Shown here: piece by piece, positions 3,900 to 64,000 of the stretch | Position numbering within the stretch: the stretch's first letter is position 1 | How the letters are laid out: each line of letters starts with the position of its first letter | NCBI RefSeq assembly: GCF_964194155.1 | Contig: NC_135901.1 | Coordinates: 37,634,001 to 37,698,000, forward strand | Direction: 5' to 3' | From: Cetorhinus maximus | Lineage: Eukaryota | Length of the DNA: 64,000 bases | Made by a program: the position numbers and the translations under genes | The notes under the pieces: model-generated | What the model saw: the letters and a program-made list of their open reading frames with translations, nothing else | What the model was told of the DNA's origin: nothing | Database searches by the model: none

Positions 3900-4352
3900 A
3901 GGTTGCTGCTACCCAGATGACTATCGTTCTCTATCAGATTTACTTTTCCAAAATAAAGGTTGGGGCACCCACTGCAGACACATCCATGTCACTGGGAACC
4001 AGCTCTCCTACAACTGGTGCCGTCTCCCTTCGAGCCTTTCATTGTCTTGTCTGGTACCAAGTATTCTGATTGTCCCGAAGCCGATATTAGCTTTGAATTC
4101 CTCATGTGCAGTAACGAGAATCCTTTCAAGGTCTCTGGTCAGTTAATTTCACAGATAACATCAGGGTCAATGTTCCAGCGTCTTAAAGAAGGGAAAGGTG
4201 TTTTGACTGTCTCTGGTCAGTGGGACAGTTCATCCTTCATTCTCCTCGGATTCCATTCCACAAAGGGGATTTTCTTTTTCTTCTTGAATTTCCTGACCAC
4301 ATCTGGCAGCATCTTTGAGTGGAGAGGCATAATTATCGGATCAGATGCAGTG
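3900..4352. repeat. Cassette block B, copy 1
   Basis: Homologous to 24466-24960 (inverted) and 59670-60045 (same orientation). Confidence 0.85.
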
Positions 4353-4490
4353 CAGTTCTGATGAAAGGTTACAGATCTGAAATGAAAACGATGTTTCTCT
4401 CTCCACAGGCGCCACCAGATCTGCTGAGAATTCCAGCACTTTCTGTTTTTATTTCAGATAGCCAGCATCTGCAGTATTTTGCTTCTCTTT
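4352..4490 (+). mobile_element. Short Penelope-derived terminal element with degenerate hammerhead motif
   Basis: CAGTTCTGATGAAAGGTTACAGATCTGAAA followed by the family 3' end (CTGCTGAG...CCAGCA...TTTCAGA...GCATCTGCAGTATTTT). Paralog at 24340-24466. Confidence 0.75.
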
Positions 4491-4504
4491 ACCTGGTTAG
4501 TGAA

Positions 4505-4878
4505 ACGTAAAAGATTCTGAGGGTTCTTGACAGGGTGGAGGTGGAGAGGACGTTACCTCTTGTGGGAGATTTGAGAACAGGGGGCCGTGTTTAAAAATAA
4601 GAGGTCGCCCATTTAAAACAGAGATGAGGCGAAATTTTATTTTCTCTCAGAGGGCCGTGAAGCTTTGGAATGCTCTTCCTGAAAAGGCTGTGGAAGCAGA
4701 GTCTTTGAATATTTTTAAGGGAGAGGTGGATATATTCTTTGTAAGCAAGGGGGTGATAGGTTATCAGGGGTAGACAGGGTACAGGTTTCAGGTTACTATC
4801 AGATCAACCATGATCTTATTAAATGGCGAAGCAGACTTGAGGGACATAATGACCTACTCCTGCCCCTTGTTCTTATGC
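4505..4878 (+). mobile_element. CR1 LINE 3' fragment
   Basis: Typical CR1 ORF2 C-terminus and 3' UTR (CTTGACAGGGTGGA..., CCTACTCCTGC...TTCTTATG). Absent from the paralogous site near 24320. Confidence 0.8.
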
Positions 4879-5419
4879 AGTGTTAAGAATGTGGATCCAA
4901 TTACCAGTAGATTTCCAGATCCATGTCTGAGCTGAAAACGTGTAGGTAAACTGACATTATGAACAGATTGTTCACCACCCGGAAGTGGAAAGGGGTTTGC
5001 TCTATAATCCCAATTACTGACACACCATCACAGCCTCGCTGGTGGGAGATCATTCAGATACTTCACGTGTATAAAGGGCTTTATTCAGTTAGCCCAAATG
5101 TTAACACTCCAGCTTTAAAAGTTCATTGGATTTGATCCACAATCAGAGCATTGCTACTGACAAGACACGGCTTAACTGAACCATGTACAGCGCAGGGGAG
5201 AGGGGGAAGTCAGCAGCTAACCCCATCTGCTGAGACTCCGCTGAGTTCAGATCTAACTGTAGGGGTTTGTTCTGCTGTTCATTACATCCAGGAGAGAATT
5301 GTGGTGGATCTTGGAGCAATATGGCCGTTGCATCAATTGATTTAACAATTTTATGTCTTACCCCTATGGCACCGATCGTATTCTGATTGCAGGATGAAAA
5401 CATTCTACAATTCGGACTT

Positions 5420-5850
5420 TCAATGGCGGGGCGCTCACCCGGCTTTCACTGCGGGACAGAATGTGCCCTATACTCACAACAGAAATTCTCTATGCATGCG
5501 CATTTCTGTGTATGATGGGGCATGCGCATTGCTGTTCTTTTAATGAGCATGCGTAGTGCTGGTCTGTGACTGCAGCTGCTCAGAGCGGGTGAGATAATGT
5601 CGAGGGGAGCAAAGCAACAGAGTTAGTGGGTGTGTGAGGAGGAATGGAGCCAGCAGAGTGGGCAGGGAGGCTTCATAAAGACACGGTGCAGGCCGCAGAC
5701 CCCAAATAACAAGGTAGCCGTCTTGTGTTTGCAGAGAACGGTCCAAAAGTCTGGATTTCTCCCTTCGCCAGGCCCGGGATAACGGCCACCATCTTTATAG
5801 GGGGCAATGTGCAGCAGGGCGCATGCGCGGTCATCCTGGTCCAGGTAGCA
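5420..5850 (+). promoter_or_regulatory. CpG-rich putative promoter of the zinc-finger gene at 8.9 kb
   Basis: Several GCATGCGC (NRF1-type) motifs, a GGCCACCATCTT YY1-like motif and local CpG enrichment. Inverted paralog at 21050-21460. Confidence 0.6.
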
Positions 5851-5874
5851 GGAGGAGAGAATGTTGTGAATTTC

Positions 5875-6691
5875 AAGTGAAGCAGCATTTCATTTGCACT
5901 TCCCTCAATTTAGTCTACTGCATTCGCTGCTCCCAGTGCGGTCTCCTCTACATTGGAGAGACCAAACGCAGGCTGGGTGACCACTTTGTGGAACACCTTC
6001 GGTCTGTCCACAAGCATAACCATGACCTCCCTGTCGCTTGCTATTTCAACACACCACCCTGCTCTCAATCCCGTCCTTGGCCTGCTGCAATGTTCCAGTG
6101 AAGCTCAACGCTAACTGGAGGAACAGCACCTCATCTTCCGACTAGGCACTTTACAGCCTTCCGGACTTAACATTGAGTTCAACAACTTTAGATCGTGAAC
6201 TCTCTCCTCCATTCCCACCCCCTTTCCGATCCCGTTTTCCAATAATTTATAATAATTTAAAAAATATATTTTTCTTTTCCCACCTATTGCCGTTATTTTT
6301 AAATTTATTTCCATCCATTGTTTTATCTCTACCTTTTGGCCTCTTTAGATCCCATCCCACCACCCCACCCCCACTAGGGCCATCTGTCACTTGCTCGTCC
6401 TGCTTTCTACCCTCAATGTCCCCATTAGCACATTCGTTAGCTGATATCACTACCATCAACACCCCTTTGTTCTTTTGTCCATGACATCTTTGGCAATCTC
6501 TTCTTTGCCTCCACCCATCTCTGGCCCTCTATCCAGCTCTACCTGTCCCACCCCCCTCAACCAGCATATATTTCACCTCATTCTATATTTCCTTAGTTAT
6601 GATGAAGAGTCATACGGACTCGATACATTAACCCTATTCCTTTCCGCAGATGCTGTCAGACCTGCTGAGTATTTACAGCTATTTTTGTTTT
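5875..6691 (+). mobile_element. 5'-truncated Penelope-like element (GIY-YIG C-terminus, 3' UTR, degenerate hammerhead)
   Basis: NLVYCIRCSQCGLLYIGETKRRLGDHFVEH is a GIY-YIG motif. 13-bp TSD TGTTGTGAATTTC at 5862-5874 and 6692-6704. Absent from the paralogous arm near 21045. Confidence 0.92.
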
Positions 6692-6697
6692 TGTTGT

Positions 6698-7075
6698 GAA
6701 TTTCTATCAGGGACTGACAGGTGTGGATTTTGGAAACTCCTTTTACAGAGGGTTAGAAGAGGAGGATTTACACACAGCAAACTCAAACCAAGAGAAATGT
6801 TTGTTCTTTCTGAATTTGTGTCCTGGACTAACAGTGATGGATTTTGGAAACTCTTTTTACCTGGGGTTAAGAGAGGATCTACACACAACAAACTCAAAGC
6901 AGGAGAACTGTTTGTCTGTTCTCAATTTCTACCCTGGACTGACAGTGATGGTTTTTTAATCTCCTTTTTACAGGATAATGGAAGGGGGTTCTCAGACAGG
7001 AAACTCAATTCAAACACCACATCAAAGTCTGGCAGAATCACTCGATTCATCAGGACCTGGATATTATCACACTCT
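6698..7075 (+). repeat. Three tandem ~110-115 bp copies of the zinc-finger exon 5' module (splice acceptor plus exon start)
   Basis: Repeated GAATTT..CCTGGACTGACAGTGATGGATTTT..CTCCTTTTACAG|G..GGATTT..AAACTCAAACC. Related copies at 14030, 20790-21050 (-), 26590, 29340-29630 (-) and 33965. Confidence 0.75.
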
Positions 7076-7084
7076 GAGTGTAAG

Positions 7085-9739: not shown

Positions 9740-9960
9740 GCTCTCCCTCTCCCCTGTCTCATCCATCCTCACCTCCAACAATAAGTGTGAGGATTTGATG
9801 CAGCTTCTTTGTCACTAAGATTGAGACAATCCGATCAGCTGCCTCTGCTGCTTCCCTCCCTTCCACTAGCCCACCGGGACAAACTGTCTCTAAAGTTGAC
9901 CCTTGTTCGAGTCATGGACTCACAACTTTCTTTATTTTCTCCTCTATCTCCTCTCATACC
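9740..9960 (+). mobile_element. L2 fragment attached downstream of the zinc-finger 3' UTR (part of the cassette)
   Basis: Same fragment with the same junction follows zinc-finger copies at 17090 (-), 45710, 52900 and 63415 (-). Confidence 0.8.
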
Positions 9961-11000
9961 TGAAATAAAAGTAAAATTCTGCAGATGCTGGAAATCTAAA
10001 TAAAAACAGAAAATGCTGGAATAACTCAGCAGGTCTGTTAGCATCTCTGGAGAGACAAACAGAGTTATCATTTTGAGTCTTGTGCGGTCTTGACAGGGTG
10101 GATGTGGAGAGAATGTTTTCTCTTGTAGGAGAATCTAGAACCAGGGGTCACTGTTTAAAAATGAGGGGTCACCCATTTAAGACAGAGATGAGAATTTGTT
10201 TTTCTATCAGAGGGTCGTGAGTCTTTGGAATTCTCTTACTCAAAAGGTGTTGGAAGCAGAGTTTTTGGATATTTTTAAGGTAGAGGTAGATAGATTCTTG
10301 ATTAACAAGGGGGTGAAAGGTTATTGGGTGTAGGCAGGAGTGTGGGGTTGAGATTAGAATCGGATCAGCCATGATCTTATTAAATGGTGGAACAGGCTCG
10401 AGGGGCCGAGTGGCCTATTCCTGCTCCTAATTCATCATATGTTCGTTTGACTTCTCAAGAGCTGAAGAGGTCGAAATGTGATGGAATTTATGCTGCTGAA
10501 AATGGAGGCGGTGGGGGGATGGGGAGGGTTACTGGAGCAAAACAGAAGGTCAGGGATTGGTTGGAGGTCAGGTGTGAGTAAATGACAAAGATGTCCTGGA
10601 CAGAACACAAAGGGAGTGATAATGATACTATTAAAGACTAACGCAGGTGTTAATAGCAGCATATAGATCAACCATGTCTGAAAGCAAGATAGCAGAATGT
10701 GTTAGTAGCAGAACAAAGGTCAGCATTTTCTGAAAGAAAAACATAAGAACAAGGTATAGACTGGCATTTGGCAGGAGGAGGTGGGTGGAAAGAAAATCAG
10801 CATGGAGGACAGAGTTCATGGTCTGAAATTGTTGAACTCAGTGTTAAGTCCAGAACACTGTTAGGTGCCTAATTGAAAGATGAGCTCCCTTTCCTCCAGT
10901 TTGTGTTTAGCTTCACTGGAACATCGTAGCTGGCTGAGGCTGAAGGCTTGCTCTCATGCTCACATTGCTGTCCTCAGCCTGCTACACTGTCCCAGTAAAC
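9960..11000. mobile_element. Nested Penelope 3' region (-) interrupted by a CR1 3' fragment (+, ~10085-10445)
   Basis: CAGATGCTGGAAATCT...CTCAGCAGGTCTG Penelope end; AAATTGTTGAACTCA...GTGCCTA matches the reverse of the GIY-YIG tail; CR1 3' UTR lies between them. Confidence 0.7.
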
Positions 11001-13660: not shown

Positions 13661-14199
13661 TCCCAGTGACCAGGGGAGAAATGATTGATTCAGCAAAATA
13701 CTGCGGATGCTGGAAACCTGACACAAAATCAAAAAATGCTGGAAAATTCATCAGGTCTGACAGCATCTATGGAGAGAAAGACAGAGTTAATGTTTAGAGT
13801 CCGTATGACTCTTCTTCAGAGAAATGATTGATTCTTTGATTTTATTCTCACTCTTCACACAGGGGCTGGAGAACTGAACCCAGCTACAGTAGAGAGAGGG
13901 AACAATCTCGGAGTAGAGGAAATAAATGGTTGAGATGGTGTGATGTGTTTGGATTTCAGCACAGGAGAAGCAACTGTTTGTGGGACAGCTTTGGGGGAGC
14001 AAAGGAGGAGAAATGTTGGATGAAAATTAGAATTGTTTGTTCAGAATGTATAGCCTGTGATGACTTTTGTAAACACATTTTACAGGGTAATTTGAAGGAG
14101 AGGATTTACAGACGGGAAACTCAAGCCAAACATGACATCCACATCTGACAGTCACTCGATTCATCAGGACCTGAATCAGCCTTTGAATGTGTAAGGAGA

Positions 14200-15189
<990 letters not shown>

Positions 15190-15920: not shown

Positions 15921-16520
15921 CAGTGCTTCCCAAAATTTTTCCCAATGTGACCCCATTTTAATGACTCAGCTTCATGTGACCCCAGATTGAAATTTGTTGA
16001 GGAGTGTGAGAATTGTTGAGCGGGGGGTGGGGGTGATTAGCAGATTATTAATGTGTTTGGACTCTGATTATCAATATACTAGCATCCTGATTATTAATCT
16101 TATCGGATCATGATTATTGACACAATTAGCAAATGACGATGATATAATTGGACCCTGATTATTGATTCAATAGGAATCTGATAGTTCATTGAAATAATTC
16201 TGATTATTAATGTATTTACATCCTGATTATTGCTGCAATAGGCAGCCTAATTGTTAATGCAGTTGGAATCATGTTATTAATGTAATTAGATGCTGATTAT
16301 TAATGTAAAAGGACTCTGATTATTAATGTAATAAGACACTGATTATTAATGTAATAAGACACTGATTATTAATGTAATATGATGCTGATTCTTTATGTAA
16401 TAGGTCACTGATTAATAATGTAATAGGACACTGACTATGAATGTAATCAGACACTGATTATTCGTGTCATTAGATCTTGATTATTAATATAATAGGACAC
16501 TGATTATACATGCAACTGGG
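15921..16520 (+). repeat. AT-rich 23-bp minisatellite preceded by a hAT-like terminal sequence
   Basis: Unit TGATTATTAATGTAATAAGACAC, about 20 diverged copies at 16040-16515. CAGTGCTTCCCAAA...GTGACCCC at 15921 resembles a hAT TIR; the partner TIR was not found. Confidence 0.75.
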
Positions 16521-17090
16521 TGTTGTTAGTATATATCTGAAAACTGATGTGGTGCTTTTGGATGATGTCACCAAGTGGCAGCATGTAGATGAGAAATAGG
16601 AGGGGCCAAGGATAGATCCTTGGGGGACACCAAGTACAAGGACTTTGGAGAGGAAGGGGAGGTTGGAGATGGGGCAGTAGTTTGCAAAGACAGTGGGGTC
16701 AAATTTGTTTTTATTAGGATGGTTGATGGTGATGGATTTAAAGGTGAGAGGGACAGTACCAAAAGAGAGGGAGAACCATTAACAATATGGAGAAGTTGGG
16801 TGATCCGCAGTTTAGTGGGAATAGGGTCAATGGAGCAGAAGCTGGGCCTCATCGACAAGATGAGCATTGAGAGGGCATGAGGGAGATGGGAGAGAAACTG
16901 GAGAAAGATGTGGTTCAGGGCTCGGACAAGGTGGATCTTTACACACAGTTTGTTGCGGTGGGTTAGTGGGAGGGAAGCAGCAGAGGCAGCTGATCGGATT
17001 GTCTCAATCCTAGTGACAAAGAAGCTCCATGAGCTCCTCACACTTATTGTTGGAGGTGAGGATGGAGGAGACAGGGGAGAGGGAGAGGAC
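16520..17090 (-). mobile_element. L2 LINE fragment
   Basis: SFFVTRIETIRSAAS, CSIDPIPTKL and GPLLF-like region on the minus strand. Confidence 0.85.
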
Positions 17091-24097: not shown

Positions 24098-25008
24098 GTT
24101 AACAGGTGGGAAAACTAAATAAACCCCTTTGCTCATGTAGAGTATCTGAATGGGCTTGCACCAGTGAGACTGTGTTGCTGTGTTTGTAACTGGAATGACA
24201 GAGTGAATCCCTTTCCATTTCCAGCTCGTGAATGATCTGTTTACAGTGTGAGTTTACCTGTACGGTTTCAGCTCAGACATGGATCTCAACCCCTTCTGCT
24301 AATGGGTTCCACATTCTTAGCACTAAACAGTTAAAGAAAAGCAAAATATTGCAGATGCTGGATATCTGAAAGAAAAACTGAAAATGCTGGAATTCTCAGC
24401 AGATCTAGTAGCTTCTGTGGAGAGAGAAAGTTTTCATTTCAGGTCTGTAACCTTTCATGAGAACTGCACTGCATCTGAAATGTTAATTATGCCTCTCAAT
24501 CCAAAGATGCTGCCAGATGTGGTCAGGGAACTCAAGATGAAAAAGAAAATCCCATTTGAGGAATGGAATCCGAGGAAAATGAAGGGTGAACTGTCCGACT
24601 GACCAGAGACAGTCAAGGCACCTTTCCCTTCTTTAAGATGCTGGAACATTGACTCTGATGTTATCTGTGAAATTAACTGATCTGAGGCATTGAAAGGATT
24701 CTCGTTACTGCACATCAGGAATTCAAAACTAATATCAGCTTCGGGACGATCAGAATACTTGGTAACAGACATGACAGCGAAAGGCTCGAAGGGAGACAGG
24801 CACCGTTGAAGGAGAGCTGGTTCCCGGTGACATGGATGTGTCTGCATTGGGTGAAATCAGACTGTTTCCATGTATCCACAATGAATGTCCCAAAGATTAT
24901 TTTGGAAGAGTAAATCTAACAGAACGATTGACATTTGGGTAGTGTCAGTTTGAAGATTTGGCTTACTCACACCCTGGTTGGGATACCTTACAGTTGGAAC
25001 TTGTCTCA

Positions 25009-28480: not shown

Positions 28481-29639
28481 CACCAACAGAGAGTTGTCAG
28501 GATCTGGAACACCCTACCTGGAAAGGTGCTGGAACCTGATTCTATCAGGAATTTTAGAAGGGAGTTGACAAGAATTTGAGATTGAGGAACTTACAGGGTA
28601 ACAAACAGGAAGAGGGTGTGTGGGACTAAATACGACTGCTCTTTCAAAGAGACAGCACAAGCACAAAGGGTTGAATGGCCTCCTTGTGTGCTGTAAGTTT
28701 CTATGATTCGAGGAGTTGGCCATTTAGCCCCTCGAGCCTGTCCTACCATTAGCTGATGGTATAAGGATTAGATTGAAGGTTATGGACAATATAGACAGGA
28801 CAAATGCAGGAAGAACTTTTTACACAGTGAGTCGTAATAACCCAGAACTCACTGCCTAGGAGGCAAATGGAAGCAGACATGAGCAGTGATTTGAAATGGA
28901 GATTGAATGTCGAGGGAAATAAACTTGCAGGGCCTTGGGGATACAGGAGGGGAATGGGACAGACTGGATTGCTCTAGAGAGCTTGCAGAACTCAATAAGC
29001 TGAATGGCTTCTTTCTGTGCTCTAATTACTCGGACTCATTTGTTTACTGTCTCCTCATAATTTAAATTTTGGAGTGCAGGTATCATTCAGGTAAATCTGC
29101 ACTGCACTCCCACTAAGTCCAATACAGTCTATCCTTCCTAAGGTGTGCTGCCCAGAATTGAACACAGTATTCCTGTTCTGATCAAAGGTCATGTTGAACT
29201 GAAACGCTAACTCTGTTTCTCGCCACAGATGCTGCCTGACCTGCTGAGCATTTCCAGCATTTTTTTATTTTTATTGCAGTAGCTCAGGTGCGGTCTAACC
29301 TGGATTTTGAATATCTCGGTGCTTTTTCAGTCACATCGATACCTGAAACTTTTTCTGACAAACAGAACAGACAAACCTTTTTCCTTCCACAGTCAAAGTC
29401 CAGTAAGATTCAGGTTCTGATGAATCCAGTTACTCCGTCAGATGTTAATGTGAAGTTTGGATGGAATTTCCCGCCTGCAAATCCTTCCCATTGAAAATCC
29501 TGTAAAAGGATTATTTTAAAAATCCATCCCTGTCAGTCCAGGATAGAAATTGAGAGACAAACATTTCTCTGGGTTTGAGTTAGTGTGTGTAAATCCTCCC
29601 CTTCTAAGCCCCTGTAAAAGGAGTTTCCAAACACTCGGT

Positions 29640-40519: not shown

Positions 40520-42620
40520 TCATCACAGAATTTTAACAGCACAGAAGGAGGCCATTTGGCCCATCGTGTCTGCACCGGCTCTCCAAATGAACATTCTGAC
40601 CTAGTGCCATTGCTCTGCCTTTTCCCCGTACCACTGCACATTGTTTCTATTCAGATAGTCACCTAATGCCCTCTTGAATGCCTTGATTGAACCTGCCTCC
40701 ACCACACTACCAGGGAGTGTATTCCAGATGCGAACCACTCGTTTTGTGAAAAAGTTTTTTCTCGCTTCACATTTGTTTCTGTTGCAAATCACTTTACATC
40801 TGTCCTCTCGTTCTTGATTCTTATAAGAGCAGGAATGGCTTTTCCCTATCTACTCTGTCCAGTCCCCTCATAATTTTGAACATCTCTATCAAATCTCCTC
40901 TTCGCCGCCTTCTCTCCAAGGAGAACAGTCCCAACCTCTCCAATCTATCCTCATTGCTGAAGTTTCTAGTCCCTGGAACCACTCTTGTTAACCTCTTCTG
41001 CACTCTCTCCAATATGTCCACATCCTTTCTGTAATGTGATGCCCAGAACTGTACACAATATTCCAGCTGAGGTCTAATGAGTGACTTATATAAATTAAAT
41101 ATAACCTCCTTTCTCTTGTACTCTATGCCCCTATTAATAAAGCCCAGGATGCTATATGCTTTATTAACAATTCTCACCACCTTCAATGATCCAGGCACGT
41201 ATACACCCAGGCCTTTCTGCTCCTGCACCCCCTTTAAAATTTCACCCCTAATTTTATATTATCTGTCCATTTTCTTCCTACCAAAATGCATCACCTCACA
41301 CTTCTCTGCATTGAACTTCTTCTGTCACCTATTTGCCCACTCCACCAACTTGTTTATGTCCTTTTGAAGTTCTACACTGTCCTCCTTTGCAGTTTACAAC
41401 ACTTCCAAGCTTTGTACCATCCGCAAACTTTGAAATTGTACCCTGTACACCAAGATCTAGATCATTAATATATATCAGGAAAAGCAAGGTCCCAATACTG
41501 GCCCCTGGGGAACTCCACTACAAACCTTCCTCCAGCCTGAAAAATATCCATTGACCATTACTCTCTACTTCCTATTTTACAGCCAATTTTGTATCCATGT
41601 TGCCAATGTCTCTTTTATTCCTTGAGCAATAACTTTTCTCACAAGTCTGTTGTGTGGCACTGTATCAATGCCTTTTGAAAGTCCATGTACATCACATCAA
41701 CAGCATTATCCTCATTGACCTTTTCTGTTACCTCTTCAAAAAACTCCAGCAAGTTGGTTAAACACGATTTCCCCTTTAGAAATCCATGCTGGATCTTCCT
41801 TATCAACCCATATTTTACCATGTGAGTACTAATTCTATCCTGAATAATTGTTTCTAGAATCTTGCCCACCATTGAAGTTAAACTAAGATAAAAAACAAAA
41901 AACTGTGGATGCTGGAAATCTGAAACAAAAACAGAAAATGCTGGAAAAAGTCAGCAGGTCTGACAGCATCTGTGGAGAGAGAAACAGTGTTGGTGTTTCA
42001 TGTCCGTATGACTCTCCTTCAGAACTGAAGTTAAACTAACTGGTCTGTAATTGCTGGGCTTATCCTCACAACCTTTTTTGAACAAGGACATAATGTTTGC
42101 AATTCTCCAGTCCTCTGGCACCTCCCCTGAGTCTCGAGAAGACTGAAAAAATTATGGCCAGTCCCCCTGCAAGTTCTACTCTCTCTTCCTTCAATAACTT
42201 TGGATGCATCTCATCCAGTCCCGGTGCCTTGTCAACTTTAAGTACCGACAGTCTATTCAACACTTCCTCCTTATCAATTTTGAACCCTCCTAGTGGCAGA
42301 GTTTCATCATCTGTCATTTTGGCCTGGGTAGCATCTACCTCCTTGGTAAAGACGGATGCAATGTGTTCATTTAATACCTCAGCAATGGCCCCTTCGTCCA
42401 TGTGTAAATTCCCTTATAGGTGCCTAATCGGCCCTGCTCCTCCCTTTACTGCCCTTTTTCTATTTATATGCCTATAGAAGACTTTGGGAATCCCAAATTG
42501 ATGTTGGCTGCCAGTATTTTCTCATAATTCCCCTTTGTTTCTCTAATATGCTTTTTCACCTCCCCCCTGAACCTTCTTTATTCCTCTTGGTTGTATTTTC
42601 TACCTGACACCTTTCATAAA
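40520..42620 (-). mobile_element. CR1 LINE 3' half
   Basis: KAPGLDEMHPKLLKE, QHGFLKGKSCLTNLLEFFEEVT, RPQLEYCVQFWASHYRKD. Confidence 0.92.
41887..42025 (-). mobile_element. 139-bp Penelope-terminal mini-element with 14-bp TSD
   Basis: TGAAGTTAAACTAA at 41873-41886 and 42026-42039. The element runs from a degenerate hammerhead to a T-rich tail. Confidence 0.88.
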
Positions 42621-46074: not shown

Positions 46075-46975
46075 AGATTCTCAGTGTGAACAGGGTGGGA
46101 TGTGTTTGGAGACAGGATGTCCCAGTTCTCCAGTTTGGGTTGTTTTCGTTGGAGCAGAGTAGACTGAGGGGCGACCTGATCGAGGTGTACAAGATTATGA
46201 GGGGCGTGGATAGGGAGCAACTGTTCCCCTTAGTCATAAGGGGACATAAGTTCAAGGTGAGGGGCTCAAGGTTTAGGGGGGATGTGAGGAAAAACGTTTT
46301 TACCCAGAGGGTGGTGACAGTTTGGAATGTGCTGCCGGGGAGGGTGGTGGAGGCGGGTTGCCTCACATCCTTTAAAAAGTACCTGGATGAGCACTTGGCA
46401 CATCATAACATTCAAGGCTATGGACCAAGTGTTCGTAAATGGGATTAGGGAGGTCAGGTGTTTCTCATGTGTCAGTGCAGACTTGATGGGCCGAAGGGCC
46501 TCTTCTGCACTGTGTGATTCTGTGATTCCACCCTTGGAATTCTCAGTGTGAACAGGGTGGTATGTGTTTGGAGACAGGATGTCCCAGTTCTCCACCCTGG
46601 GATTCTCAGTGTGAACAGGGTGGGATGTGTTTGGAGACAGGATGTCCCAGTTCTCCACCCTGGGATTCTCAGTGTGAACAGGGTAGAATGTGTTTGGAGA
46701 CAGGATGTCCCAGTTCCCCACCCTGGGATTCTCAGTGTGAACAGGGTGGGATGTGTTTGGAGACAGGATGTCCAAGTTCTCCACCCTGGGATTCTCAGTG
46801 TGAACAGGGTGGGATGTGTTTGGAGACAGGATGTCCCAGTTACCCACCCTGGGATTCTCCATGTGAACAAAGTGAGATCTATTTGGAGACAGGATGACCC
46901 AGTTCTCCACCTTGGGAATCTCATTATGAACAGGTTGGGATGTATTTGGAGACAGGATGTCCCAGATTTCCACCT
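46075..46975. repeat. 63-bp minisatellite (8 units) with a CR1 3' end inserted in the first unit (~46132-46527)
   Basis: Unit GGATTCTCAGTGTGAACAGGGTGGGATGTGTTTGGAGACAGGATGTCCCAGTTCTCCACCCTG at a 63-bp period from 46548 to 46926. Confidence 0.93.
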
Positions 46976-48829
46976 TTAATGGGGAGATATACAGGATCAA
47001 TTTCTACCTTACTGAGTGAGAAATGTCATTGTCCTGGACACCCCCTGTCCCTCAGTATCTGTATCCGGGGGACAGGCTGATGGGTTTACTCTGTATCTAA
47101 TCCATGCTGCGTTTTACTGGAGAGTGTTTGATTCTGACAATGAGATGATGACGATGAGATAAACCCATCAGCTTCCCCCCTGGACACAGATCCTGAAGGA
47201 CAAGGAGTGTCTATAATATTTTTGACCATGTCCTTGATCCAGTTTTGAACTCCTTGCTCACATCTCCTCTCATCCTGCTTAGTTCTAATGAAAAGACCCC
47301 CAGTTTCTCCAGTCTTTCCTCATGGGAAAGAGAAGTTGGAACTAAGTTAGAAACTCACAGCAGACAGGTCACCATTAGAAAACATTTCATTCCACAGTCA
47401 ATTGTTTTCACCTGTAATACACTGTCTGCAAGTTTAAAAACAAAATACTGCAGATGCTGGAAATCTGAAACAAGTCACTCAATTCTCAGACCATAACTGA
47501 CCTCATTCCTTCTGGAGGAGAATCCTGTCATCATAGAACTGAATTTGGATTTGTTCAGCCTGAGCATGGGCCTCACTCACATCCTTGCATATTGTCTTCA
47601 AATCAGAAACACCCCTGGTTCCTGATGGTGCTCTGCTCCTTATTCAGGCTGCTGGTAGATTCTCTCTCTGCTTCTACAAGCTGCTGAGGACACAGACTGA
47701 GCCCCCAGACTGACATTTACTGCAGAAATATGGTGAACTTTCCCCTCTCAATCCATTTCCATTATCACTTGATACACATGGCCTGTCTTTAGAAATAAAT
47801 GGAAATTATTTATCTTTAAATTTAAACCATTTCTTTGATCCGATAAGTATATGGATACTTTGAAACCATCTCTTGGTTACCAGTGGCCTTCAACTTTCTC
47901 TGATCTGGGGGAAATTATTAATAATATAAACCCTCACAGACAGTCCGTCTCCTCAAGAGACAGTTACCGAGACCTCCATTGTTTAACTTTTAACACCTCC
48001 TATTATGGCTTCACGGACATAATATGGGACCTCACTTTGATCTGAAATTACCCCAGAACTGTCTACCTTCCCTTCAGGCCAGGTGCTCTTTCATTTATCC
48101 TCCATTTAAAAATTACAATTTCCAAACCAAAAATAAGCTTATGCACATTTGTAACATAAGTCAGTCATTTTTATCAAAAAACAGCAGAGATCCTGGTGCT
48201 GAACCCTGGGAACTGCACTGTAAATCTCACTTCTTTCCAAAGGAAATGCCATTCACCCTCACTCTCTGATTGCTATCACTTACATATCTTTGTATCCATG
48301 CTACTGCTGATGTTTTGATCAGATGGGCGTCAAGTTCACGAACAGACTTAATAAATGGTACTTGATCCAATGTCTGCAAACACAGCACAAACTGCAATGG
48401 CCTCAACCCCCTTCCCTGTTAAACTTGTCAAAAAACTCCATCAGGTTATTTAACAAGTCCTGAGACTTCTTTCCCTCAGCATTTTATCAGAAGCTTATTA
48501 AAAAACAAATGAGGTTTGGAACACAAATCAGTGTCCCTTGGGTAGTAGGAACGGCCCATTTCACATTCCATTTACACACTTACCTACCTTCACCTATTTG
48601 GATCAGGGTCACATTGAGAGGGACATACAACACTTTGGTCATTCTTGTCTCTCTTCACTGGCAGGAAAATCTCTGTGTGAGTTAATCCCTGAGATGCGGA
48701 TAAAATCTGTCCTGGCCGCTCTGTTCCAGGGTTCAGATCTCCTAGACATGAAACAGAAGATTCCTTTACAGCTGTGTTTTGAGTCAAGAAGAACAACGGT
48801 GAATGCTGGAAAAGTGTTGTCAAATCAGA

Positions 48830-51331
48830 AACAAAAGTACCTGGAAAAGCTCAGCAGGTCTGACAGCATCTGCGGAGAGGAAACAGTTAACGTTTCGAGT
48901 CCGAATGACTCTTCATCAGAACTAAGGAAAAATGGAAAAGAGGTGAAATATAAGCTGGTTTGGGGGGTCAGTGGGGGGGGGACCAAAGGTAGAGCTGGGT
49001 AAAGAGCCAGTGATAGGTGGAGATAACCAAAAGATGACATAGACAAAAGGACAAAGAGGTGTTGATGGTGGTGATATTAGCTAAGAAATGTGCTAATGAT
49101 GACATTAAGGGTAGAAAGCAGGACGAGCAAGGTACAGATAGCCCTAGTGGGGGTGGGGTGGGAGGAAGGGATCGAAATAGGCTAAAAGGTAGAGATAAAA
49201 CAATGGGTGGAAATATATTTAAAAATAATGGAAATAGGTGGGAAAACAAAAACCTATATAAATTATTGGAAAAGCGGGGATCGGAAAGGGGTTGGGGATG
49301 GAGGAGAGAGTTCATGATCTAAAGTTGTTGAACTCAATATTCAGTCCGGAAGGCTGTAAAGTGCCTAGTTGGAAGATGAGGTGCTGTTCCTCCAGTTTGC
49401 GTTGAGCTTCACTGCAACATTGCAGCAGGCCAAGGACGGACATGTGGGCATGAGAGCAGGGTGGTGTGTTGAAATGGCAAGCGACAGGGAGGTCTGGGTC
49501 ATGCTTGCAGACAGACAATAGGTGTTCCGCAAAGCGGTCACCCAGTCTGCGTTTGGTCTCTCCAATGTAGAGGAAACCGCATTGGGAGCAGCAAATGCAG
49601 TAAACTAAATTGAGGGAAGTGCAAGTGAAATGCAGCTTCACTTGAAAGGAATGTTTAGGCCCTTGGACGGGGAGGAGGGGGGAAATAAAGGGGCAAGTGT
49701 TGCACCTTCTGCGGTTGCATGGGAAGGTGCTGTGGGAGGGGGTTGAGTTGTAAGGGGTGATGGAGGAGTGGACCAGGGTGTCCCGGAGGGAACAATCCCT
49801 GCGGAATGCCGCCCTGGGGGTGAAGGGAAGTTGTGTTTGGTGGTGGCATCATGCTGGAGTTGGTGGAAATGGTGGAGGATGATCCTTTGAATGCGGAGGC
49901 TGGTGGGGTGATAAGTGAGGACAAGGGGGACACTATCATGGTTCTGGGAGGGAGACGAAGGTGTGAGGGCGGATGCGCAGGAGATGGGCCGGATACAGTT
50001 GAGGGCCCTGTCAACCACCGTTGGTTCAAAACCTCGGTTAAGGAAGAAGGAAGACATGTCAGAGGAACTGTTTTTGAAAGTGGCATCATATAACAGATGC
50101 GACAGAGGCGAAGGAACTGAGAGAATGGGATGGAGTCCTTACAGGAAGTGGGGTGTGAGGAGCTGTAGTCAAGGTAGCTGTGGGAGTCGGTAGGCTTGTA
50201 ATGAATATTGGTGGACAGTCTATCACCAGAAATTGAGAGAGAGATCAAGGAAGTGTCAGAGATGAACAATGTGAAAATGATGGAGGGGTGGAAATTGGCA
50301 GCAAAATTAATCAATTTTTCCAGGTCCAGATGAGAGCATGAAGCAGCACCGAAGCACTCATCGATGTACTGGAGAAAGAGTTGTGGGAGGGGGCCTGAGT
50401 AGGACTGGAACAAGAAATGTTCCACATACCCCATAAAGAGACAGGCATAACTGGGGCCTATGCGGGTACCCATAGCCACACCCTTTATTTGGAGGAATTG
50501 AGAGGAGTTTAAGGAGAAATTGTTCAGTGAGAGAACGAGTTCAGCCAGACGGAGGAGAGTAGTGGTGGATGGGGATTGTTCGGGCCTCTGTTCGAGAAAG
50601 AAGCGGAGAGCCCTCAGACCATCCTGGAGGGGGATGGAGATGTAGAGGGATTGGACGCCCATGGTGAAGAGGAGGCGGTTAGGGCCAGGGAACTGGAAAT
50701 TGTTGATATTATGTAGGGTGTCAGAGGGATCGCGGATGTAGGTGGGAAAAGTCTGGACAAGGGGAGAGAGAATGGAGTCAAGATAGCAAAAAATGAGTTC
50801 CGTGGGGCAGGAACAGGCTGACACGATCAGTCTGCTGGGACACTCCTGTTTGTGGGTTTTGGGTAGGAGGTAAAAGCGGGCCGTCCAAGGTTGGGAGACC
50901 AAGAGGTTGGAAGCTGTGGAAGGAAGATCTCCAAAGGAGATGAGGTCAGTGACAGTCCTAGAAACAATGGCTTGATGTTCAGTGGTGGGTTCACGGTCCA
51001 GGGGGAGATAGGAGGAAGTGTCTGCGAGTTGACGCTCAGCCTCTGCAAGGTAGAGATCAGTGCACCAGACAACAACAGCACCACCCTTGTCAGCAGGTTT
51101 GGTGACAATGTCAGGGTTGGACCTGAGAGAACGGAGTCCCACCTGTTTCCCCCCCTGCCACCCCCTGAAACCAGCATATATTTCACCTCATTCTATATTT
51201 CCTTAATTTTGATGAAGAGTCATTCGGACTCGAAATGTTAACTGTATTCCTCTCTGCAGATGCTGTCAGACCTGCTGAGTTTTTCCAGGCATTTTTGTTT
51301 AGGATTTCCAGCATCCGCAGTTTTTTTGCTT
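48830..51331 (-). mobile_element. Penelope-like element (RT plus GIY-YIG), 5'-truncated, with inverted terminal copy and 13-bp TSD
   Basis: KPADKGGAVVVW, FYLLPKTHK, QIKGVAMGT, YIDE, YKPTDSHSYL; VYCICCSQCGFLYIGETKRRL. The 3' end (48830-48990) is repeated inverted at 51140-51331. TSD TTGTCAAATCAGA at 48817-48829 and 51332-51344. Confidence 0.95.
48885..48923 (-). ncRNA. Minimal type I hammerhead ribozyme motif with intact core
   Basis: AGUU-CUGAUGA-A-GAGUC(AUUCG)GACUC-GAAA-CG-UU-AACU: stem I AGUU/AACU, 5-bp stem II, palindromic ACGU helix III. Confidence 0.8.
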
Positions 51332-51657
51332 TTGTCAAATCAGACATTGGTGTAAAACTGTGATCTGTTCCTGACTGAAGGTGAAACGGCAGGTTTAAGT
51401 TTCCAGTCTGAAAATAACTGTATTAAGTATTCTGTGAATTAATATTTCTGAATGAAAGAAAGATTTAATGTGTGTGTGTGTGACAGTCCTCTGTCTATCT
51501 TTTAAGGCAGTTGTTAACTCTGACAAAGCCTAATGCCTGAAATGTTAAGGTTTGAGCAGCGGATGATTTGCAGTCGGGAAACTCAGACCAAACATCATGT
51601 CAGGATCTGATGGAGTCACCCAGCTTAAAGTATCCTGAATATCATTGGATTTTGAAC

Positions 51658-56810: not shown

Positions 56811-58142
56811 TAAAAGTCACACCAACTCTCCCAATCTTTTTACTGTAAAATTCCTTCATTTTATTGAAAATCTGACTGTTGTGAATCTGAAAATGAGCAC
56901 CATGGGATTTGTGTTAGCGAGTGACTTGTTTTCCATTGTTTTTCCGTCAGGTTTGCAATTCAATTTGTGTTGGATGTTGAAGTGAATCTGATTTCAAAAT
57001 GAGGACATTAAATCCAGGAATTAATTCTGAGGAAAACGGATCACAATGTTTGGAAGGAGGTGCAGCTGAGAAGCGGAAGCTGTGAATGAAGTTATTGATG
57101 ATTGAATGGACAGCATTAGGTACTTGTTTAACATCGTGGCTGTGTGGTTAATTAGATGGTTTTAAAATTCATTGGGGTTTAATCAGGTAAGTTCAAGTCT
57201 TACCGACTGTGATTTACATTATTGCTGATTTCAACCAGGTGTCTACAGAACTATGGGTCAATGGAAGAAAAGACAAACAAAAATCTGTATTTGCTCCGAA
57301 GAAAAGTCGTATGCACTCGAGATGTTAGCTCCGTTTCTTTCTCCACAGGTGCTACAAGACTTGTTGAGTGTTTCCAGCATTTTCTGTTTCTATTTCATAT
57401 TTCCAGAATTCGCAGTATTTAGCTTTTATCCAAAAATTCTCGTGAGTTTTGTCTCAGAGAATGAAGGGTCCTCGGGATCGGGTGGGAAATTGGTGTTGAG
57501 GTTGGAGATCCGCCATAATCTTATTAAGTGACGAAGGAGGCTTGTGGGGCCTTTTATCTACATTCTTGCAGTGCACCTGCTGAACAATATAAGCTTATGA
57601 TAGCTCTGCTTTCTTCACATTGTGAAAATATGAACAATTTCAAAGCTGGACAACGTATACAAGACAGGAAGGAGAGTGTGAGTGTGGATAATCGGCACTG
57701 TGCACATTCCTGTAATCTGTGGCTCAGTTCATAGCACCCTCGCCTTTGAATCAGAGGGTTGTGGGTTCATGTCCCACTCCCGGAAAACCAAGAACTGTGA
57801 TTGTACTCGAAAGAAGTTGCAATCTGTGACTGTTGGTAACTCGAAAGAGTTTCCTGTAATCAGTACCTGGGAGAATCAGGAAGATGAGATCCTGGTGTCT
57901 CTTTACCCTGTTGTCTGCAAACCTATCGCCTTGTGTCTTACATTCCCATGAACTGACAGTGTCTGTATCAAGCAGCTAATTGGCCTGAGAGCTGGAGGCG
58001 AGGCGGGGACAGAGGCAGAAAGAGATGCGACATGAAAGTGCTTTGAATTTGATGTGTGTCAGTGGTGAATGTCTGCCTTGTAAGTTCCACGGAATAAGGG
58101 GTTTTTTTTGTTTGAAAGCAGCAAGATTTTAAATGACTACAG

Positions 58143-59543: not shown

Positions 59544-59617
59544 CGCCCCTGGGTGGTCTCAAACCACCAACCTTTCGATTAACAGCCAAACACGCTGACC
59601 AATTCTGCCACAGAGAC
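59544..59617 (-). tRNA. tRNA-Asn(GTT)-like gene, best-preserved Asn copy, probably a pseudogene
   Basis: GTCTCTGTGGCAGAATTGGTCAGCGTGTTTGGCTGTTAATCGAAAGGTTGGTGGTTTGAGACCACCCAGGGGCG: acceptor, anticodon and T stems pair, but the D stem is broken and the T loop reads TTTG. Confidence 0.85.
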
Positions 59618-60854: not shown

Positions 60855-60929
60855 GCCTGGCTAGTTCAGTCGACGGCATCTGAGACTCTTAATGTCCAGG
60901 TCTGTTGGGTTCGCGACCTATGCTTGGTG
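60855..60929 (+). tRNA. tRNA-Lys(CTT)-derived pseudogene
   Basis: GCCTGGCTAGTTCAGTCG...TGAGACTCTTAAT...TGGGTTCG...TTGGTG followed by a T5 run. Confidence 0.75.
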
Positions 60930-62339
60930 AAATTCCCTTTTTAAACTTAACTACTTTCAAGGGTGAACCCCAGCTCTCCATTCCTGCGGCAGTAACACCA
61001 CTCAAACTGATTATTTCTCCACCCCGCTTTGCTAATATCACAGCCGCTGGTTTCTGAGTGAAAACTGCTCTCTGCTCCACTGGAAGCTAGAGTATTTAAT
61101 TCTGAGCATTTGGTGCTTTCACCACTGCAGCCTAGGTTTAATTCCCATACAGGGGAAACCTTTCCCTTCCCGCTATGTGAACTGACACAATGAACAGGAA
61201 TTCCTTATTCAATGAAACCAGGTCTGGCAGCGCCTGTGGAATAAGAAACAGGGTTAATCTTCCAGCTGGATGATCTTTCATCGGAGCTGGAAAAGTCAGA
61301 GATGTAACAGGTGGAAGACAAGTCCAGAGGCGGAGGGAGGGGAGTGAAAGGACAAAAGGGAAGGTCTGTGATAGGTTACAAGGCATAAGAGAGAAACTGA
61401 CTAAAGGGATGATGGTGCAAAATGTGGGTATATATACAGTACCATAAAATCAGAGCCAAAAACAACATATAGAGACCATTCAGCTGTGTCAGAGGAACAT
61501 AGGCCATTCAGCCCTTTGACCCTGCTCCACCATTCAATCAGATCAAGGCTGATCTGGTTGTGGTCTCAACTCCACTTTCCTGTCTGTCTGTCCGTCCCCC
61601 AATGCCCTCATAGCCCCCCCCCCCCCCCCCCCCCCCACCCATTAACCCTTGACTCCCTTGTCTATCAAAAATCTGTCCAAATCAGCCTTGAATAAATTCA
61701 ATGACCCAGCCTCCACTTGTTTCTGGGGAAAATTCCTCAGGCTAACGACCCTCTGAAAAAACAAAAAAAAATCTCCTCATCTCCGTCCGAAAAGGGAGAC
61801 CTCTTACTCTCCTGGAACTAACTCACCTGGTCCCACTCCCCCACCTTTTCCCTGGACATTCTGCAGCTTTTGGTCTAATTCCCCTTTGAATTCCACTACT
61901 GAATCTGCCATCCCCACACTCTCTATCTAACCCAGCCACCAGATCCATCCCTCCCAGGTCGCTATGTGGAAATGCATGGTTACCCTGCACTGAAGAACAG
62001 GTCCCAGGCATACTCAGCTACTTGACAACAGAACAACATGAAGTGATTATTGTGGAAAATTGAATGAGACATTTTAAATCATCAAGACGTTGACACACAC
62101 ACTCCATAGAGAAACTGACTTTCAAACTATCAGGATGGAATTAAACACGCTGGTACCGATCAGAAGGAGTAAAATTAAAGTGAAGGGGGCAATAGAATCT
62201 GGATTTAGAAAATATCCACAAGGTGAATGCAGGTGAACAGAGAGCTGGAGAATCTTTAAAGTTTGTGCATGAACTTTTGTTTGAACCAGGTGTATTTACG
62301 ACATGTCAATAATTTAGATTGTGAGAGATGATCAGCAGG

Positions 62340-62740
62340 TGGGGAGGATGAATCTCAGTCGATAGTTATCATATTTAGTGGACAAAGTTTTCACATTTAT
62401 TCTTGATGGCAGCTCAAGGGTTTTTGTTGCTGATTCTGATAACTCTAGTAGCTTTAGTATGTTATCCACGGTTTGCCATCAAAAAATTAGGAAAACAAGC
62501 TCACAGCTGAGAAACAGTGAGGTTAGCCAAAAATCAGTTGTGAGAAGTCAATAAGAATATTCCCTTCTCAAGGTGGGGAGATCTGTAAGAAATCACTGTC
62601 ACCTTATAAAATCTTCAGAAATGTATTGAATATTATAGGAATGGCTCTCGTCCCCCTCCCCCCTCTCCCCTATCCCCTCTCTCTCTCTCTCTCAGGAACA
62701 AAGATTACTGGCTTGACAAACATAGGACAACACATCCCAA
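62340..62740 (+). mobile_element. ERV remnant: env transmembrane end, polypurine tract, LTR start
   Basis: WTKFSHLFLMAAQGFLLLILITLVALVCYPRFAIKKLGK (62379-62510), AAGGTGGGGAGA at 62570-62581, then TGTAAG at 62584. Confidence 0.6.
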
Positions 62741-63415
62741 TGTTACGTCAGGGATGGGCTCGGGAGTTAGGGAACGGAATTTGTACTGGTGAGTGAAGAC
62801 AATGGTTTTGATTTTCTCAATTCTTAAAAGGAGCAAATTTCTACTCATCCAGTACTGGATGCAGGATTAGCAATTTGATAATTTAGTACCAGTGGAGGAA
62901 TGGAGAGGGCTGGTGGTGAGGTAGAGCTGGGCATTGTCAGTGCACATGTGAAAACTAACACGGTGCTTTTGGATGATGTCACCTAGTGGCAGCATGTAGA
63001 TGAGAAATAGAAGGGATCAGGGATAGATTCTTTTTTTAGGGTGGATGATGATGGTGGATTTAAAGATGAGAGGGACAGTACCAGAAGAGAGAGGAAAAAA
63101 CATGAACAATATCAGCCAACATGGAGAAGTTAAATGGTCAGCAGTTCAGTGGGAATAGGGTCACTGGAGCAGAAGGCGAGTCTCATGGACAAGGTGAGCA
63201 TTGAGAGGCTATGAAGGGAAATAGGAAACTGGAGAAAGATCTGAATTCAGAGCTCGGACATGGGGGATCTTTAGAGACAGTTGACCCAGTGGGTTAGTGG
63301 AAGGGAGGGAAGCAGCTGATCGGATTGTCTCAATCTTAGTGACAAAGAAGCTCCATGAGCTCCTTATGCTTGCTGTTGGAGGTGAGAATGGAACAGACAG
63401 GGGAGAGGGAGAGCA
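62740..63415 (-). mobile_element. L2 LINE fragment (cassette-associated)
   Basis: SFFVTKIETIRSAAS; homologous to 16520-17090. Confidence 0.8.
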
Positions 63416-63599
63416 TTTCAAAAGGAACTGACTTCTGTAGAGAAATGAAAAAGACTCAACACAGTGTTTTACTCAAAGCTGATTTATTTGATCTTTATAC
63501 AGAATTTTAACCCCTATAACTGGGCTGGAGTTTATCAGCAGAAACAGACCGTTGAACATGGTTCAGTCCCAAATGTGATTAACAGCTAAATCCAATCAC

Positions 63600-64000
63600 T
63601 GTAGTCACTTGTCAACTTGAGTTAATGTTTCGAGTCCATGTGACTTTTCTGAAGACGAGTCCATCCGGACTTGAAACGTTAACTTTGTTTCTCTGTTCAC
63701 AGATGCTGCCAGACCTGCTGAATCTTTCTGCACTGTGTTTTTATTTCGGATTTCCAGCATCTGCAGTATTTTCCCTTTATACTTGTGAACTGGTTGGTGT
63801 CTTTACAGTGTGGATGAACAGCCAAATGACTTGCCACACTTGGAACATGAGAACAGCCTTTCCCCACTGTGAATTCACTGGTGTACAGTGAGGTCAGATG
63901 ATTGCCTGAACCCAGACCCACAATAAGAGCACCTTAATGGTCATTTGTCAGTGTGAACACGTTGATGCGACATCAGTTCTCTGAAATATTTCTAGCACTT
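63600..64000 (-). pseudogene. 3' end of a decayed zinc-finger gene with a Penelope mini-element (63618-63780) at its stop codon
   Basis: Degenerate [24 protein letters not shown] fingers. TSD ACTTGT(C/G)AACT at 63607-63617 and 63781-63791; family 3' UTR at 63470-63600. Confidence 0.8.

What the first reader, a model, noticed from the sequence alone, without database searches (positions are those of the whole stretch)
4352..63780. Family of ~140-170 bp mini-elements that begin at the hammerhead motif
Seen: short non-coding copies of the Penelope 3' end recur at ~4352 (+), 13690-13820 (-), 24340-24466 (-), 29173 (+), 41887-42025 (-), 57290 (+) and 63618-63780. Their 5' borders fall at or within a few bases of the stem I/CUGANGA motif, not at random positions. 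Two have their own TSDs (14 bp and 11 bp). Stem II differs between subfamilies (GAGTC/GACTC, AGGT(C/T)/GA(C/T)CT, GAGTCC/GGACTT) while mostly keeping its pairing. Inference: a non-autonomous ribozyme-headed retroelement (retrozyme-like) mobilised by Penelope RT, or a strong RT stop at the ribozyme structure. The 4352 and 24340 copies are one insertion duplicated.
Basis: partly seen in the sequence, partly recalled or inferred. Interest (0 to 1): 0.7.

Follow-up and report, generated by a model that had tools for sequence, protein, structure and literature searches.

The report
Penelope stubs ending where RNA begins
These 105-166-base inserts are end-pieces of a very abundant Penelope-type jumping gene, not a separate element; many begin a few bases in front of its small hammerhead RNA motif, likely because the copied RNA begins there, which hints at how this poorly understood class copies itself.

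Summary
The seven copies are ends (pLTRs) of a Neptune-type Penelope-like element. In 1.38 Mb sampled at fixed intervals, 51 of 89 copies that reach the hammerhead start at -15..+4 (0 = C of CUGANGA; p~1e-31). The peak lies at the 5' edge (-4), not at the cut site (+31) nor at the 3' edge where a structural stop would fall. Short and long copies share identical ribozyme sequence and interleave on a tree, so this is no separate family or retrozyme. Head-to-head pairs carry one 8-16-bp TSD; 55 of 56 pair a +98 end with a +136 end; arms stop together at -4 or both pass it (10 vs 6, mixed 0). Best reading: reverse transcription starts internally at two sites and runs off an RNA 5' end at -4, likely a TATA/initiator start. 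Against: no cap-G excess, no RNA start data, most ORF-linked pLTRs extend further, peak height varies 51/29/10% by subfamily. This scan noted the same pattern before, in this and other genomes.

The parts
4353..4489 (+). PLE end-piece, -5..+134 (with tail), old AGGU/GACCU stem II subfamily; duplicate of 24334-24466
13692..13821 (-). PLE end-piece, -2..+128; 16-bp exact TSD 13676-13691 / 13819-13834
24334..24466 (-). PLE end-piece, -5..+134; same insertion as 4353 in a segmental duplication
29175..29279 (+). PLE end-piece, -3..+102 (no tail); no TSD above chance
41885..42030 (-). PLE end-piece, about -5..+137; 14-bp exact TSD 41873-41886 / 42026-42039; 13 segmental duplicates elsewhere
57293..57431 (+). 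decayed PLE end-piece, -3..+135; 7-bp repeat only
63619..63784 (+). PLE end-piece -1..+137 (63648-63784) with inverted stub +4..+35 (63619-63650); 11-bp TSD with one mismatch 63607-63617 / 63781-63791
48830..51331 (-). 5'-truncated Neptune-type PLE (RT with DKG motif, C-x4-C-x2-C linker, GIY-YIG), tail-less 3' end, joined head-to-head to a tailed inverted arm; 13-bp TSD 48817-48829 / 51332-51344
51139..51331 (+). inverted tailed arm (-62..+133) of the long insertion
48884..48923 (-). minimal type I hammerhead motif of the parent pLTR (stem I 5' arm from 48923, C3 at 48919, predicted cut between 48889 and 48888)
   Evidence: sequence; layout as in PMC4209133; cleavage untested
48947..48952 (-). 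TATA-like element (-33..-28) ahead of the inferred RNA start A(-4) at 48923; absent from all seven short copies
   Evidence: function inferred
5868..6707 (+). longer 5'-truncated copy of the same PLE (-787 to about +98), tail-less
9960..10941 (-). longer copy (-574..+138) split near +20 by a 360-bp insertion

Best explanation
The short copies are end-pieces of a Neptune-type Penelope-like retrotransposon, likely made when its reverse transcriptase starts at internal sites about 98 or 136 bases after the hammerhead core and likely runs off an RNA 5' end four bases before the core, which is predicted to be the element's own transcription start. Shown: parentage, the two 3' end classes, the 5' peak at about -4, TSDs of 8-16 bp, one tail-less plus one tailed arm per head-to-head pair, concordant stops of the two arms. 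Inferred: the enzyme nicks both DNA strands about 14 bp apart and primes one cDNA from each nick, one at +98 and one at +136; a cDNA that reaches the RNA end is joined to the target (solo stub), to the second cDNA (palindrome), or jumps to another template site and goes on (long copy or partial tandem). Inferred: the RNA end is a Pol II start set by the TATA-like box at -35..-28 and a pyrimidine-A initiator at -5/-4; stubs lack the box and would be dead ends. The ribozyme would head the stubs only because it sits at the start of the RNA.
For: Peak: 51 of 89 copies reaching +4 start in -15..+4, 0 of 125 in -25..-16, against 8% expected from upstream truncation, p 7e-32. Exact-anchor rows read by eye: 51 of 100 start at -7..0, 5 at -45..-8, 44 pass -46 (the first 30 checked by HMM, 18 short and 12 long); sharp upstream edge, only 1 of the 44 non-palindromic short starts matches to -6. 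Not the cut site: 0 of 100 at +31, 2 of 100 in +28..+46; 2 of 104 strong random hits in +26..+36. Same lineage: 19 label changes on the tree, one short and one long copy identical over 0..+98. Two-ended insertion: 55 of 56 pairs are +98/+136, p 2e-15; 43 of 56 have a TSD (mode 14 bp) against 1.4% of 277 shuffled flank pairs; in 22 of 55 the tail-less arm reaches more than 10 nt further upstream than the tailed arm, so neither arm can be a fold-back copy of the other. One RNA end rather than chance stops: in the sampled DNA 10 pairs have both arms at the peak, 6 have both past it, 0 are mixed, Fisher p 1e-4 (one HMM overshoot re-read by eye); one complex mixed case (L232) among all 56. TATA-like A/T box at -35..-28 and A(-4) in 92 of 93 long copies, and an A/T box at the same place in the oldest subfamily with otherwise unlike upstream DNA. 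Run-off then jump: L253 and L252 have a -4/-5..+134 unit fused to upstream PLE sequence ending at -452 or -88, and both also begin at -5 or -1. Two internal RT starts bounding the tail and extension of both strands were shown in vitro for a Poseidon PLE (PMC11167929); a TATA plus initiator in a pLTR was noted in Adineta (PMC3846280).
Against: No direct RNA evidence: only assembled contigs were available and they show no start. No cap signature: G precedes 16 of 40 starts at -3 (30% expected, p 0.13) and 7 of 14 purine-preceded starts at -4. Of 54 pLTRs that run on into the ORF start and reach 0, only 5 begin at -5..+1 and 41 pass -46; 7 of 10 near-full-length copies fetched have 5' pLTRs from -68 to beyond -845 (chosen, not random), so many templates extend upstream or are extended by a jump. 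The same bases read as a branch point, pyrimidine tract and AG (3' splice site at -3); in D. virilis the intron ends at helix I and the start lies about 121 nt upstream (PMC4209133, PMC2377424). Peak height falls 51, 29, 10 per 100 from CUGAAGA to CUGAUGA to CUGUUGA subfamilies, and the last two have near-identical upstream DNA, which a pure promoter model does not explain. Pair concordance is partly confounded by subfamily.
Confidence: 0.6

Rival explanations
1. Same run-off mechanism, but the RNA end at -4 is made by processing rather than transcription start: 5'-3' exonuclease trimming of longer RNA up to the protein-bound hammerhead, or cleavage linked to the 3' splice site at -3.
For: The end coincides with the first base of stem I; peak height tracks the intactness of the core, 51/29/10 per 100; no cap-G excess; splice-acceptor-like sequence conserved; the PAc hammerhead is protein-assisted. 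Fits arm concordance as well as the best reading.
Against: The highest peak is in the subfamily with a C-A mismatch in stem I (62 of 168 cells); a cut at the splice site would give starts at -2, but 16 of 44 non-palindromic starts match to -4 or beyond and 27 of 44 include G(-3); no shared upstream exon and no deletion ending at -3/-2 among 200 rows; an A/T box is kept 30 nt upstream.
Confidence: 0.22
2. RT is blocked near -4 on longer RNAs by the ribozyme fold or by bound protein such as splice-site factors.
For: 19 of 100 copies start inside the motif, +3..+27; a block needs no special RNA end and agrees with long 5' pLTRs.
Against: A fold is met from its 3' side (+35, +22), where few starts lie; most starts inside the motif are inversion junctions; independent blocks predict about 7 mixed pairs among 16, and 0 were seen; the monomer fold is not unusually stable, z -0.02 and -1.9.
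Confidence: 0.08
3. The stubs are a self-propagating non-autonomous family (SINE-like, or retrozyme monomers via circular RNA) mobilised in trans by the PLE enzyme.
For: Very high number; labels on the tree are somewhat clustered (19 changes against 28 shuffled); older subfamilies are richer in short copies; true tandem hammerhead units exist elsewhere in this genome (L254, L255, L257, L258, L262); D. virilis Penelope has an internal promoter.
Against: Identical ribozyme sequence in short and long copies; no short-only clade; heterogeneous 5' starts and two 3' classes like those of long copies; single motif, no start at the cut site; no ORF-start or tandem unit among 101 events in 1.38 Mb.
Confidence: 0.07
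4. The peak is an artefact of alignment: homology to the model ends at the ribozyme because upstream DNA of older subfamilies has diverged.
For: True for some old copies: the oldest subfamily has unlike upstream DNA.
Against: The peak stands with exact anchors in single subfamilies where long copies are plainly seen; TSDs abut the start in L016, L234, L243, L120, L143 and window 13692 and 41885.
Confidence: 0.03

Closest known systems
Insertion units of endonuclease-positive Penelope-like elements, Neptune type (PMC8557442, PMC3846280; passages read)
   Same: 5' truncation, pLTR with hammerhead, adjacent inverted 5'-truncated copy, 30-40-bp tail on one side only, TSD, TATA and initiator-like motif in a pLTR, CX2-5CxxC linker.
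   Different: Those passages do not describe a pile-up of 5' ends just before the hammerhead; PMC3846280 explains head-to-head junctions by self-priming on an antisense template, whereas 22 of 55 pairs here have arms that cannot be copies of each other.
PAc Poseidon PLE in vitro mechanism (PMC11167929; main text read)
   Same: Two internal RT start sites bounding the tail; both DNA strands nicked and extended; cleavage by the hammerhead not needed; no RNA reads ending at the cut site.
   Different: Other clade; the paper does not assign one start site to each strand or treat run-off at the RNA 5' end; here this is inferred from genomic copies only.
Minimal hammerheads of metazoan PLEs (PMC4209133; abstract, results, discussion read)
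   Same: Type I minimal motif, extra base between 9 and 10.1, palindromic 15.2-16.2, many single dispersed motifs ascribed to truncated PLEs, covarying families.
   Different: The paper does not map the 5' ends; some subfamilies here carry U or C at position 6.
Animal non-LTR retrozymes (PMC7229834 passages; bioRxiv 10.64898/2026.07.22.740005 parts 1-3 of 5)
   Same: Non-coding, type I hammerhead, derived from pLTRs, dispersed monomers occur.
   Different: Defined by tandem units with a hammerhead in each and circular RNA; the window copies are single or head-to-head, and bounded by -4 and +98/+136, not by cut sites.
Retroviral minus-strand strong-stop DNA (recalled, no call)
   Same: Short cDNA from an internal start to the RNA 5' end, followed by a jump; works-like analogy.
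   Different: Primed by target DNA, no tRNA primer, and the short product is itself inserted.

Membership tests
EN+ Penelope-like element (parent) | single ORF with RT and C-terminal GIY-YIG | tested here: met
   DKG-bearing RT (RVT_1 E 0.016, below cut-off) and GIY-YIG (E 4.5e-4, below cut-off) in the window copy, broken by frameshift; no Pfam hit at E<=0.001 for the longer ORF calls; 41,317 first-look candidates in the genome
EN+ Penelope-like element (parent) | pLTRs in partial tandem around the ORF | tested here: met
   L216, L203, L260, L261, L264-L268: pLTR, about 3.2-kb body, pLTR
EN+ Penelope-like element (parent) | inverted 5'-truncated copy and one-sided 30-40-bp tail | tested here: met
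   55 of 56 pairs, tail about 38 nt
Neptune clade | CX2-5CxxC linker between RT and EN | tested here: met
   C-x4-C-x2-C in ORF 49312-49848; motif as in PMC8557442
Neptune clade | RT phylogeny places it in Neptune rather than Nematis | not tested
   no reference RTs were fetched
Minimal type I hammerhead | core CUGANGA...GAAA, stem II, palindromic 15.2-16.2, stem I | tested here: met
   met in the CUGAUGA parent; stem II covaries; most window stubs have decayed cores; stem I shows little covariation
Minimal type I hammerhead | self-cleavage | not testable with these tools
   needs an assay; no genomic peak at +31
Non-LTR retrozyme | tandem units, each with a hammerhead | tested here: not met
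   none of the seven; none among 101 sampled events; met only by other loci
Non-LTR retrozyme | unit bounded by cleavage sites | tested here: not met
   starts at about -4, ends at +98/+136
Non-LTR retrozyme | circular and unit-length RNA | not testable with these tools
   only contigs available
Self-propagating non-autonomous PLE family (SINE-like) | own clade with private mutations | tested here: not met
   19 changes on the tree, at least 9 forced by supported branches; identical short and long copies; 99 columns only
Self-propagating non-autonomous PLE family (SINE-like) | promoter inside the unit | tested here: inconclusive
   the TATA-like box lies outside the stubs; an internal promoter as in D. 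virilis cannot be excluded

The most novel reading that the evidence does not exclude
The stubs are genomic fossils of a strong-stop step in Penelope-type transposition: a dimeric enzyme primes two cDNAs from opposite nicks at two fixed internal sites on one RNA that begins at the hammerhead; run-off cDNA either inserts, pairs head-to-head, or jumps to the 3' repeat and continues, which would explain tail, inverted pLTR and partial tandem in one scheme, with the ribozyme's state tuning how often the jump fails.
Probability: 0.3. Interest if true: 0.7.

Novelty: new variant of a known kind. Interest (0 to 1): 0.42.

Why it matters
How Penelope-like elements make their partial tandems, inverted repeats and one-sided tail is open; only one enzyme has been studied in vitro. 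About 290,000 insertion events (101 in 1.38 Mb, extrapolated to 4.0 Gb) give a statistical record with exact predictions: RNA 5' end at -4, one start site per DNA strand, a stagger near 14 bp. It also says that most of the single minimal hammerheads counted in such genomes are likely dead by-products rather than retrozymes. The elements themselves are ordinary PLE fragments.

Tried and rejected
Rfam scan of the window: no hammerhead at E<=1, two tRNA-like and one weak miRNA match. RNA contigs of 4 of 24 listed runs laid on L216:300-1500: pLTR and ORF start are covered, but no start, no GT..AG joint among the 15 joints shown (29 not shown), and the runs are only guessed to be RNA. Cap-derived extra G: not significant. 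Spliced template with a shared first exon: not seen in 200 rows. Branch-point stop at about -25: 3 of 5 intermediate ends lie at -23..-25, but searches do not repeat it. All-against-all comparison of upstream flanks was swamped by inverted partners and its output was cut; replaced. Arm-to-arm similarity: arms are closer than typical copies (median 0.10 against 0.18, 44 pairs) but not closer than the nearest other copy (0.04), so same subfamily is shown and same molecule is not (overlapping loci lower the last figure). Monomer folding gave no significant stability. Simple fold-back as source of the pairs rejected. Literature searches found no paper describing the 5' peak; the library lacks most subscription papers and Repbase notes, and the supplements of the bioRxiv preprint were not seen.
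Full report
Setting. The window is G000:C24:37634001-37698000 of a 4.0-Gb assembly, a C2H2 zinc-finger cluster with segmental duplications. That the host is a shark is my recollection from the repeat content, not a tool result. A truncated Penelope-like element (PLE) lies at 48830-51331 on the minus strand, with a DKG-bearing RT, a C-x4-C-x2-C linker and a GIY-YIG domain (both Pfam matches are below their cut-offs). Coordinates below count from the C of CUGANGA as 0; the predicted cut is between +30 and +31.

Observation. All seven copies match the PLE end and start at -8..-1. Lengths are 105-166 bp. TSDs are 16 bp at 13692, 14 bp at 41885 and 11 bp with one mismatch around 63619; the other four have none above 7 bp. 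4353 and 24334 are one duplicated insertion, so six events are independent. Other window copies start elsewhere, so I tested the claim genome-wide.

Sample. I took 138 stretches of 10 kb at fixed intervals on contigs C1-C16 and C18 and searched them with an HMM built from seven real copies. There were 127 core hits; 2 near an edge were dropped. Of 125, 51 start in -15..+4 and none in -25..-16; 3' ends fall in two groups near +98 and +136. Of 89 copies reaching +4, 51 stop in those 20 nt, against 8% expected from the rate at -200..-16 (p 7e-32). Starts at -10..-15 are mostly HMM overshoot into an inverted partner. 68 solo hits and 33 pairs give 101 events, about 290,000 if extrapolated.

Exact anchors. 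To exclude an alignment artefact I listed DNA upstream of exact motifs; each search shows the first 100 matches, read by eye, arms counted singly, and the leading H drops about a fifth of short copies. CUGAAGA anchor, 673 matches: 51 start at -7..0, 5 at -45..-8, 44 pass -46. Of the 51, 7 start at 0/-1, 10 at -2, 11 at -3, 5 at -4, 10 at -5, 1 at -6 and 7 are palindromic junctions; matches at -5 are near chance, so the edge is at -4 or -5. A downstream anchor, 1,561 matches, gave 50 at -9..+2, 19 at +3..+27, 2 at +28..+46, none at +31, 28 past -10 and 1 unreadable. CUGAUGA: 29, 5, 66. CUGUUGA: 10, 13, 77. Oldest stem II subfamily: about 12 of 21 short. The peak is 23-, 20- and 3-fold above background in the first three.

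Not a separate family. Short and long copies share identical anchors. On a tree of 94 rows (45 short, 39 long, 10 window rows unlabelled; hits scoring 60 or more) the label changes 19 times, at least 9 forced; this is below the shuffled mean of 28 because subfamilies differ in their share of short copies. No tandem unit or ORF start occurs in the sample. Stem II covaries between subfamilies, which shows selection on the parent's motif, not on the stubs.

Pairs. Over all loci (sample plus anchored sets, segmental duplicates left out) 68 head-to-head pairs were found; 12 lacked a measurable 3' end; 55 of the other 56 join a tail-less to a tailed arm, while solo copies are 32 tail-less and 36 tailed. 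43 of 56 have a TSD of 8-16 bp, mode 14 (control 1.4%). In 22 of 55 the tail-less arm reaches further upstream by more than 10 nt, in 9 the tailed arm does; a fold-back copy cannot hold sequence absent from its template, so two copying events are needed. The window's long PLE is such a pair with a 13-bp TSD. In the sample, of 31 pairs 10 have both arms at the peak, 6 both past it, 0 mixed, and 15 have an arm starting further downstream (L061 re-read as overshoot). Among anchored pairs three more apparent mixed cases are overshoot and one (L232) is real but complex. Subfamily confounds this in part, but both classes occur within the CUGAAGA and within the CUGUUGA subfamilies.

What lies at -4. 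In 93 long copies an A/T box fills -35..-28 and -5/-4 is pyrimidine-A, the spacing of a TATA box and initiator (established knowledge, recalled). The same DNA also reads as branch point, pyrimidine tract and AG. No shared first exon and no cap-G excess were found. Two long copies carry a -4/-5..+134 unit fused to PLE sequence ending at -452 or -88 and begin at -5 or -1 themselves, as run-off followed by a jump would give. Against a simple model, 41 of 54 ORF-linked pLTRs pass -46 and only 5 start at -5..+1, about half of what subfamily rates predict and far from all.

Mechanism. Shown: structure and statistics above. From the literature: internal starts at two sites bounding the tail and extension of both strands (PMC11167929, parts 1-2 of 4 read). 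Inferred: one start per strand, run-off at an RNA end at -4 (about 0.8), that end being a transcription start (about 0.6 overall) rather than a processed end (0.22). An RT block (0.08) and a self-propagating family (0.07) fit worse. The fall of the peak from 51 to 29 to 10 per 100 is unexplained; it tracks both box strength and the A6 change, which lowers activity in another hammerhead (PMC3088659 passages), and may only reflect age.

Comparison. It works like known EN+ PLE insertion units (PMC8557442 and PMC3846280 passages) and is a member of that class. It is not a non-LTR retrozyme as defined in PMC7229834 (passages) and bioRxiv 10.64898/2026.07.22.740005 (parts 1-3 of 5). PMC4209133 (parts 1-2 of 4) already ascribes single dispersed motifs to truncated PLEs. 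D. virilis Penelope differs: TATA-less internal promoter and an intron before the motif (PMC2377424 passages). Eight searches found no description of the 5' peak. Earlier notes of this scan reach a similar reading in this and other genomes; I had written my reading before seeing them, and they are not independent support.

Verdict. A real pattern in an ordinary element class; the value lies in the testable mechanism. Interest 0.42.

Noticed in passing
L254, L255, L257, L258 (G000:C1:63825200-63830500, C1:97921200-97926000, C1:147244400-147249400, C2:124028400-124033500) and L262: Tandem deletion units of the PLE with one hammerhead per unit: ORF start (about +207..+241) joined to -32..-34, units of about 235-290 bp with different junctions, and a 530-bp unit repeated at least four times in L262. 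These fit the retrozyme definition; the recurring junction at the TATA-like box is unexplained.
   Followed up: partly
window 30636 (-) and 31312 (+): A second hammerhead-like repeat family with another sequence; 3,813 first-look candidates in the genome. Parent element not identified.
   Followed up: partly
genome-wide, e.g. L216:433-439, L101, L070: Abundant young subfamilies have U or C at core position 6 (CUGUUGA, CUGCCGA); 3,236 exact matches for one CUGUUGA motif.
   Followed up: partly
L252:3665-3685: A run of eight A plus two G lies between PLE sequence ending at -88 and a unit starting at -5; may record a jump onto a polyadenylated RNA end (one case).
   Followed up: no
L216:490-600: An ATG at about +58 opens a short frame of about 30 codons through the tail that stops just before a second ATG and the main ORF; acceptor-like sequences precede both ATGs.
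   Followed up: no
window 41885-42030 and L002-L014: This stub and its LINE flanks are copied at least 14 times, mostly on contig C24, a marker for the zinc-finger cluster duplications.
   Followed up: partly
window 9960-10941 (-): One PLE copy split inside stem II by a 360-bp insertion; the 3' half mimics a stub starting at +18.
   Followed up: partly
window 2718-2783 (-), 59544-59617 (-): tRNA-like matches (Rfam 43 and 40 bits), probably pseudogenes or SINE heads.
   Followed up: no
window 46469-47035, 16224-16545, 39623-40297: Minisatellites with 63-, 23- and 32/36-bp units.
   Followed up: no
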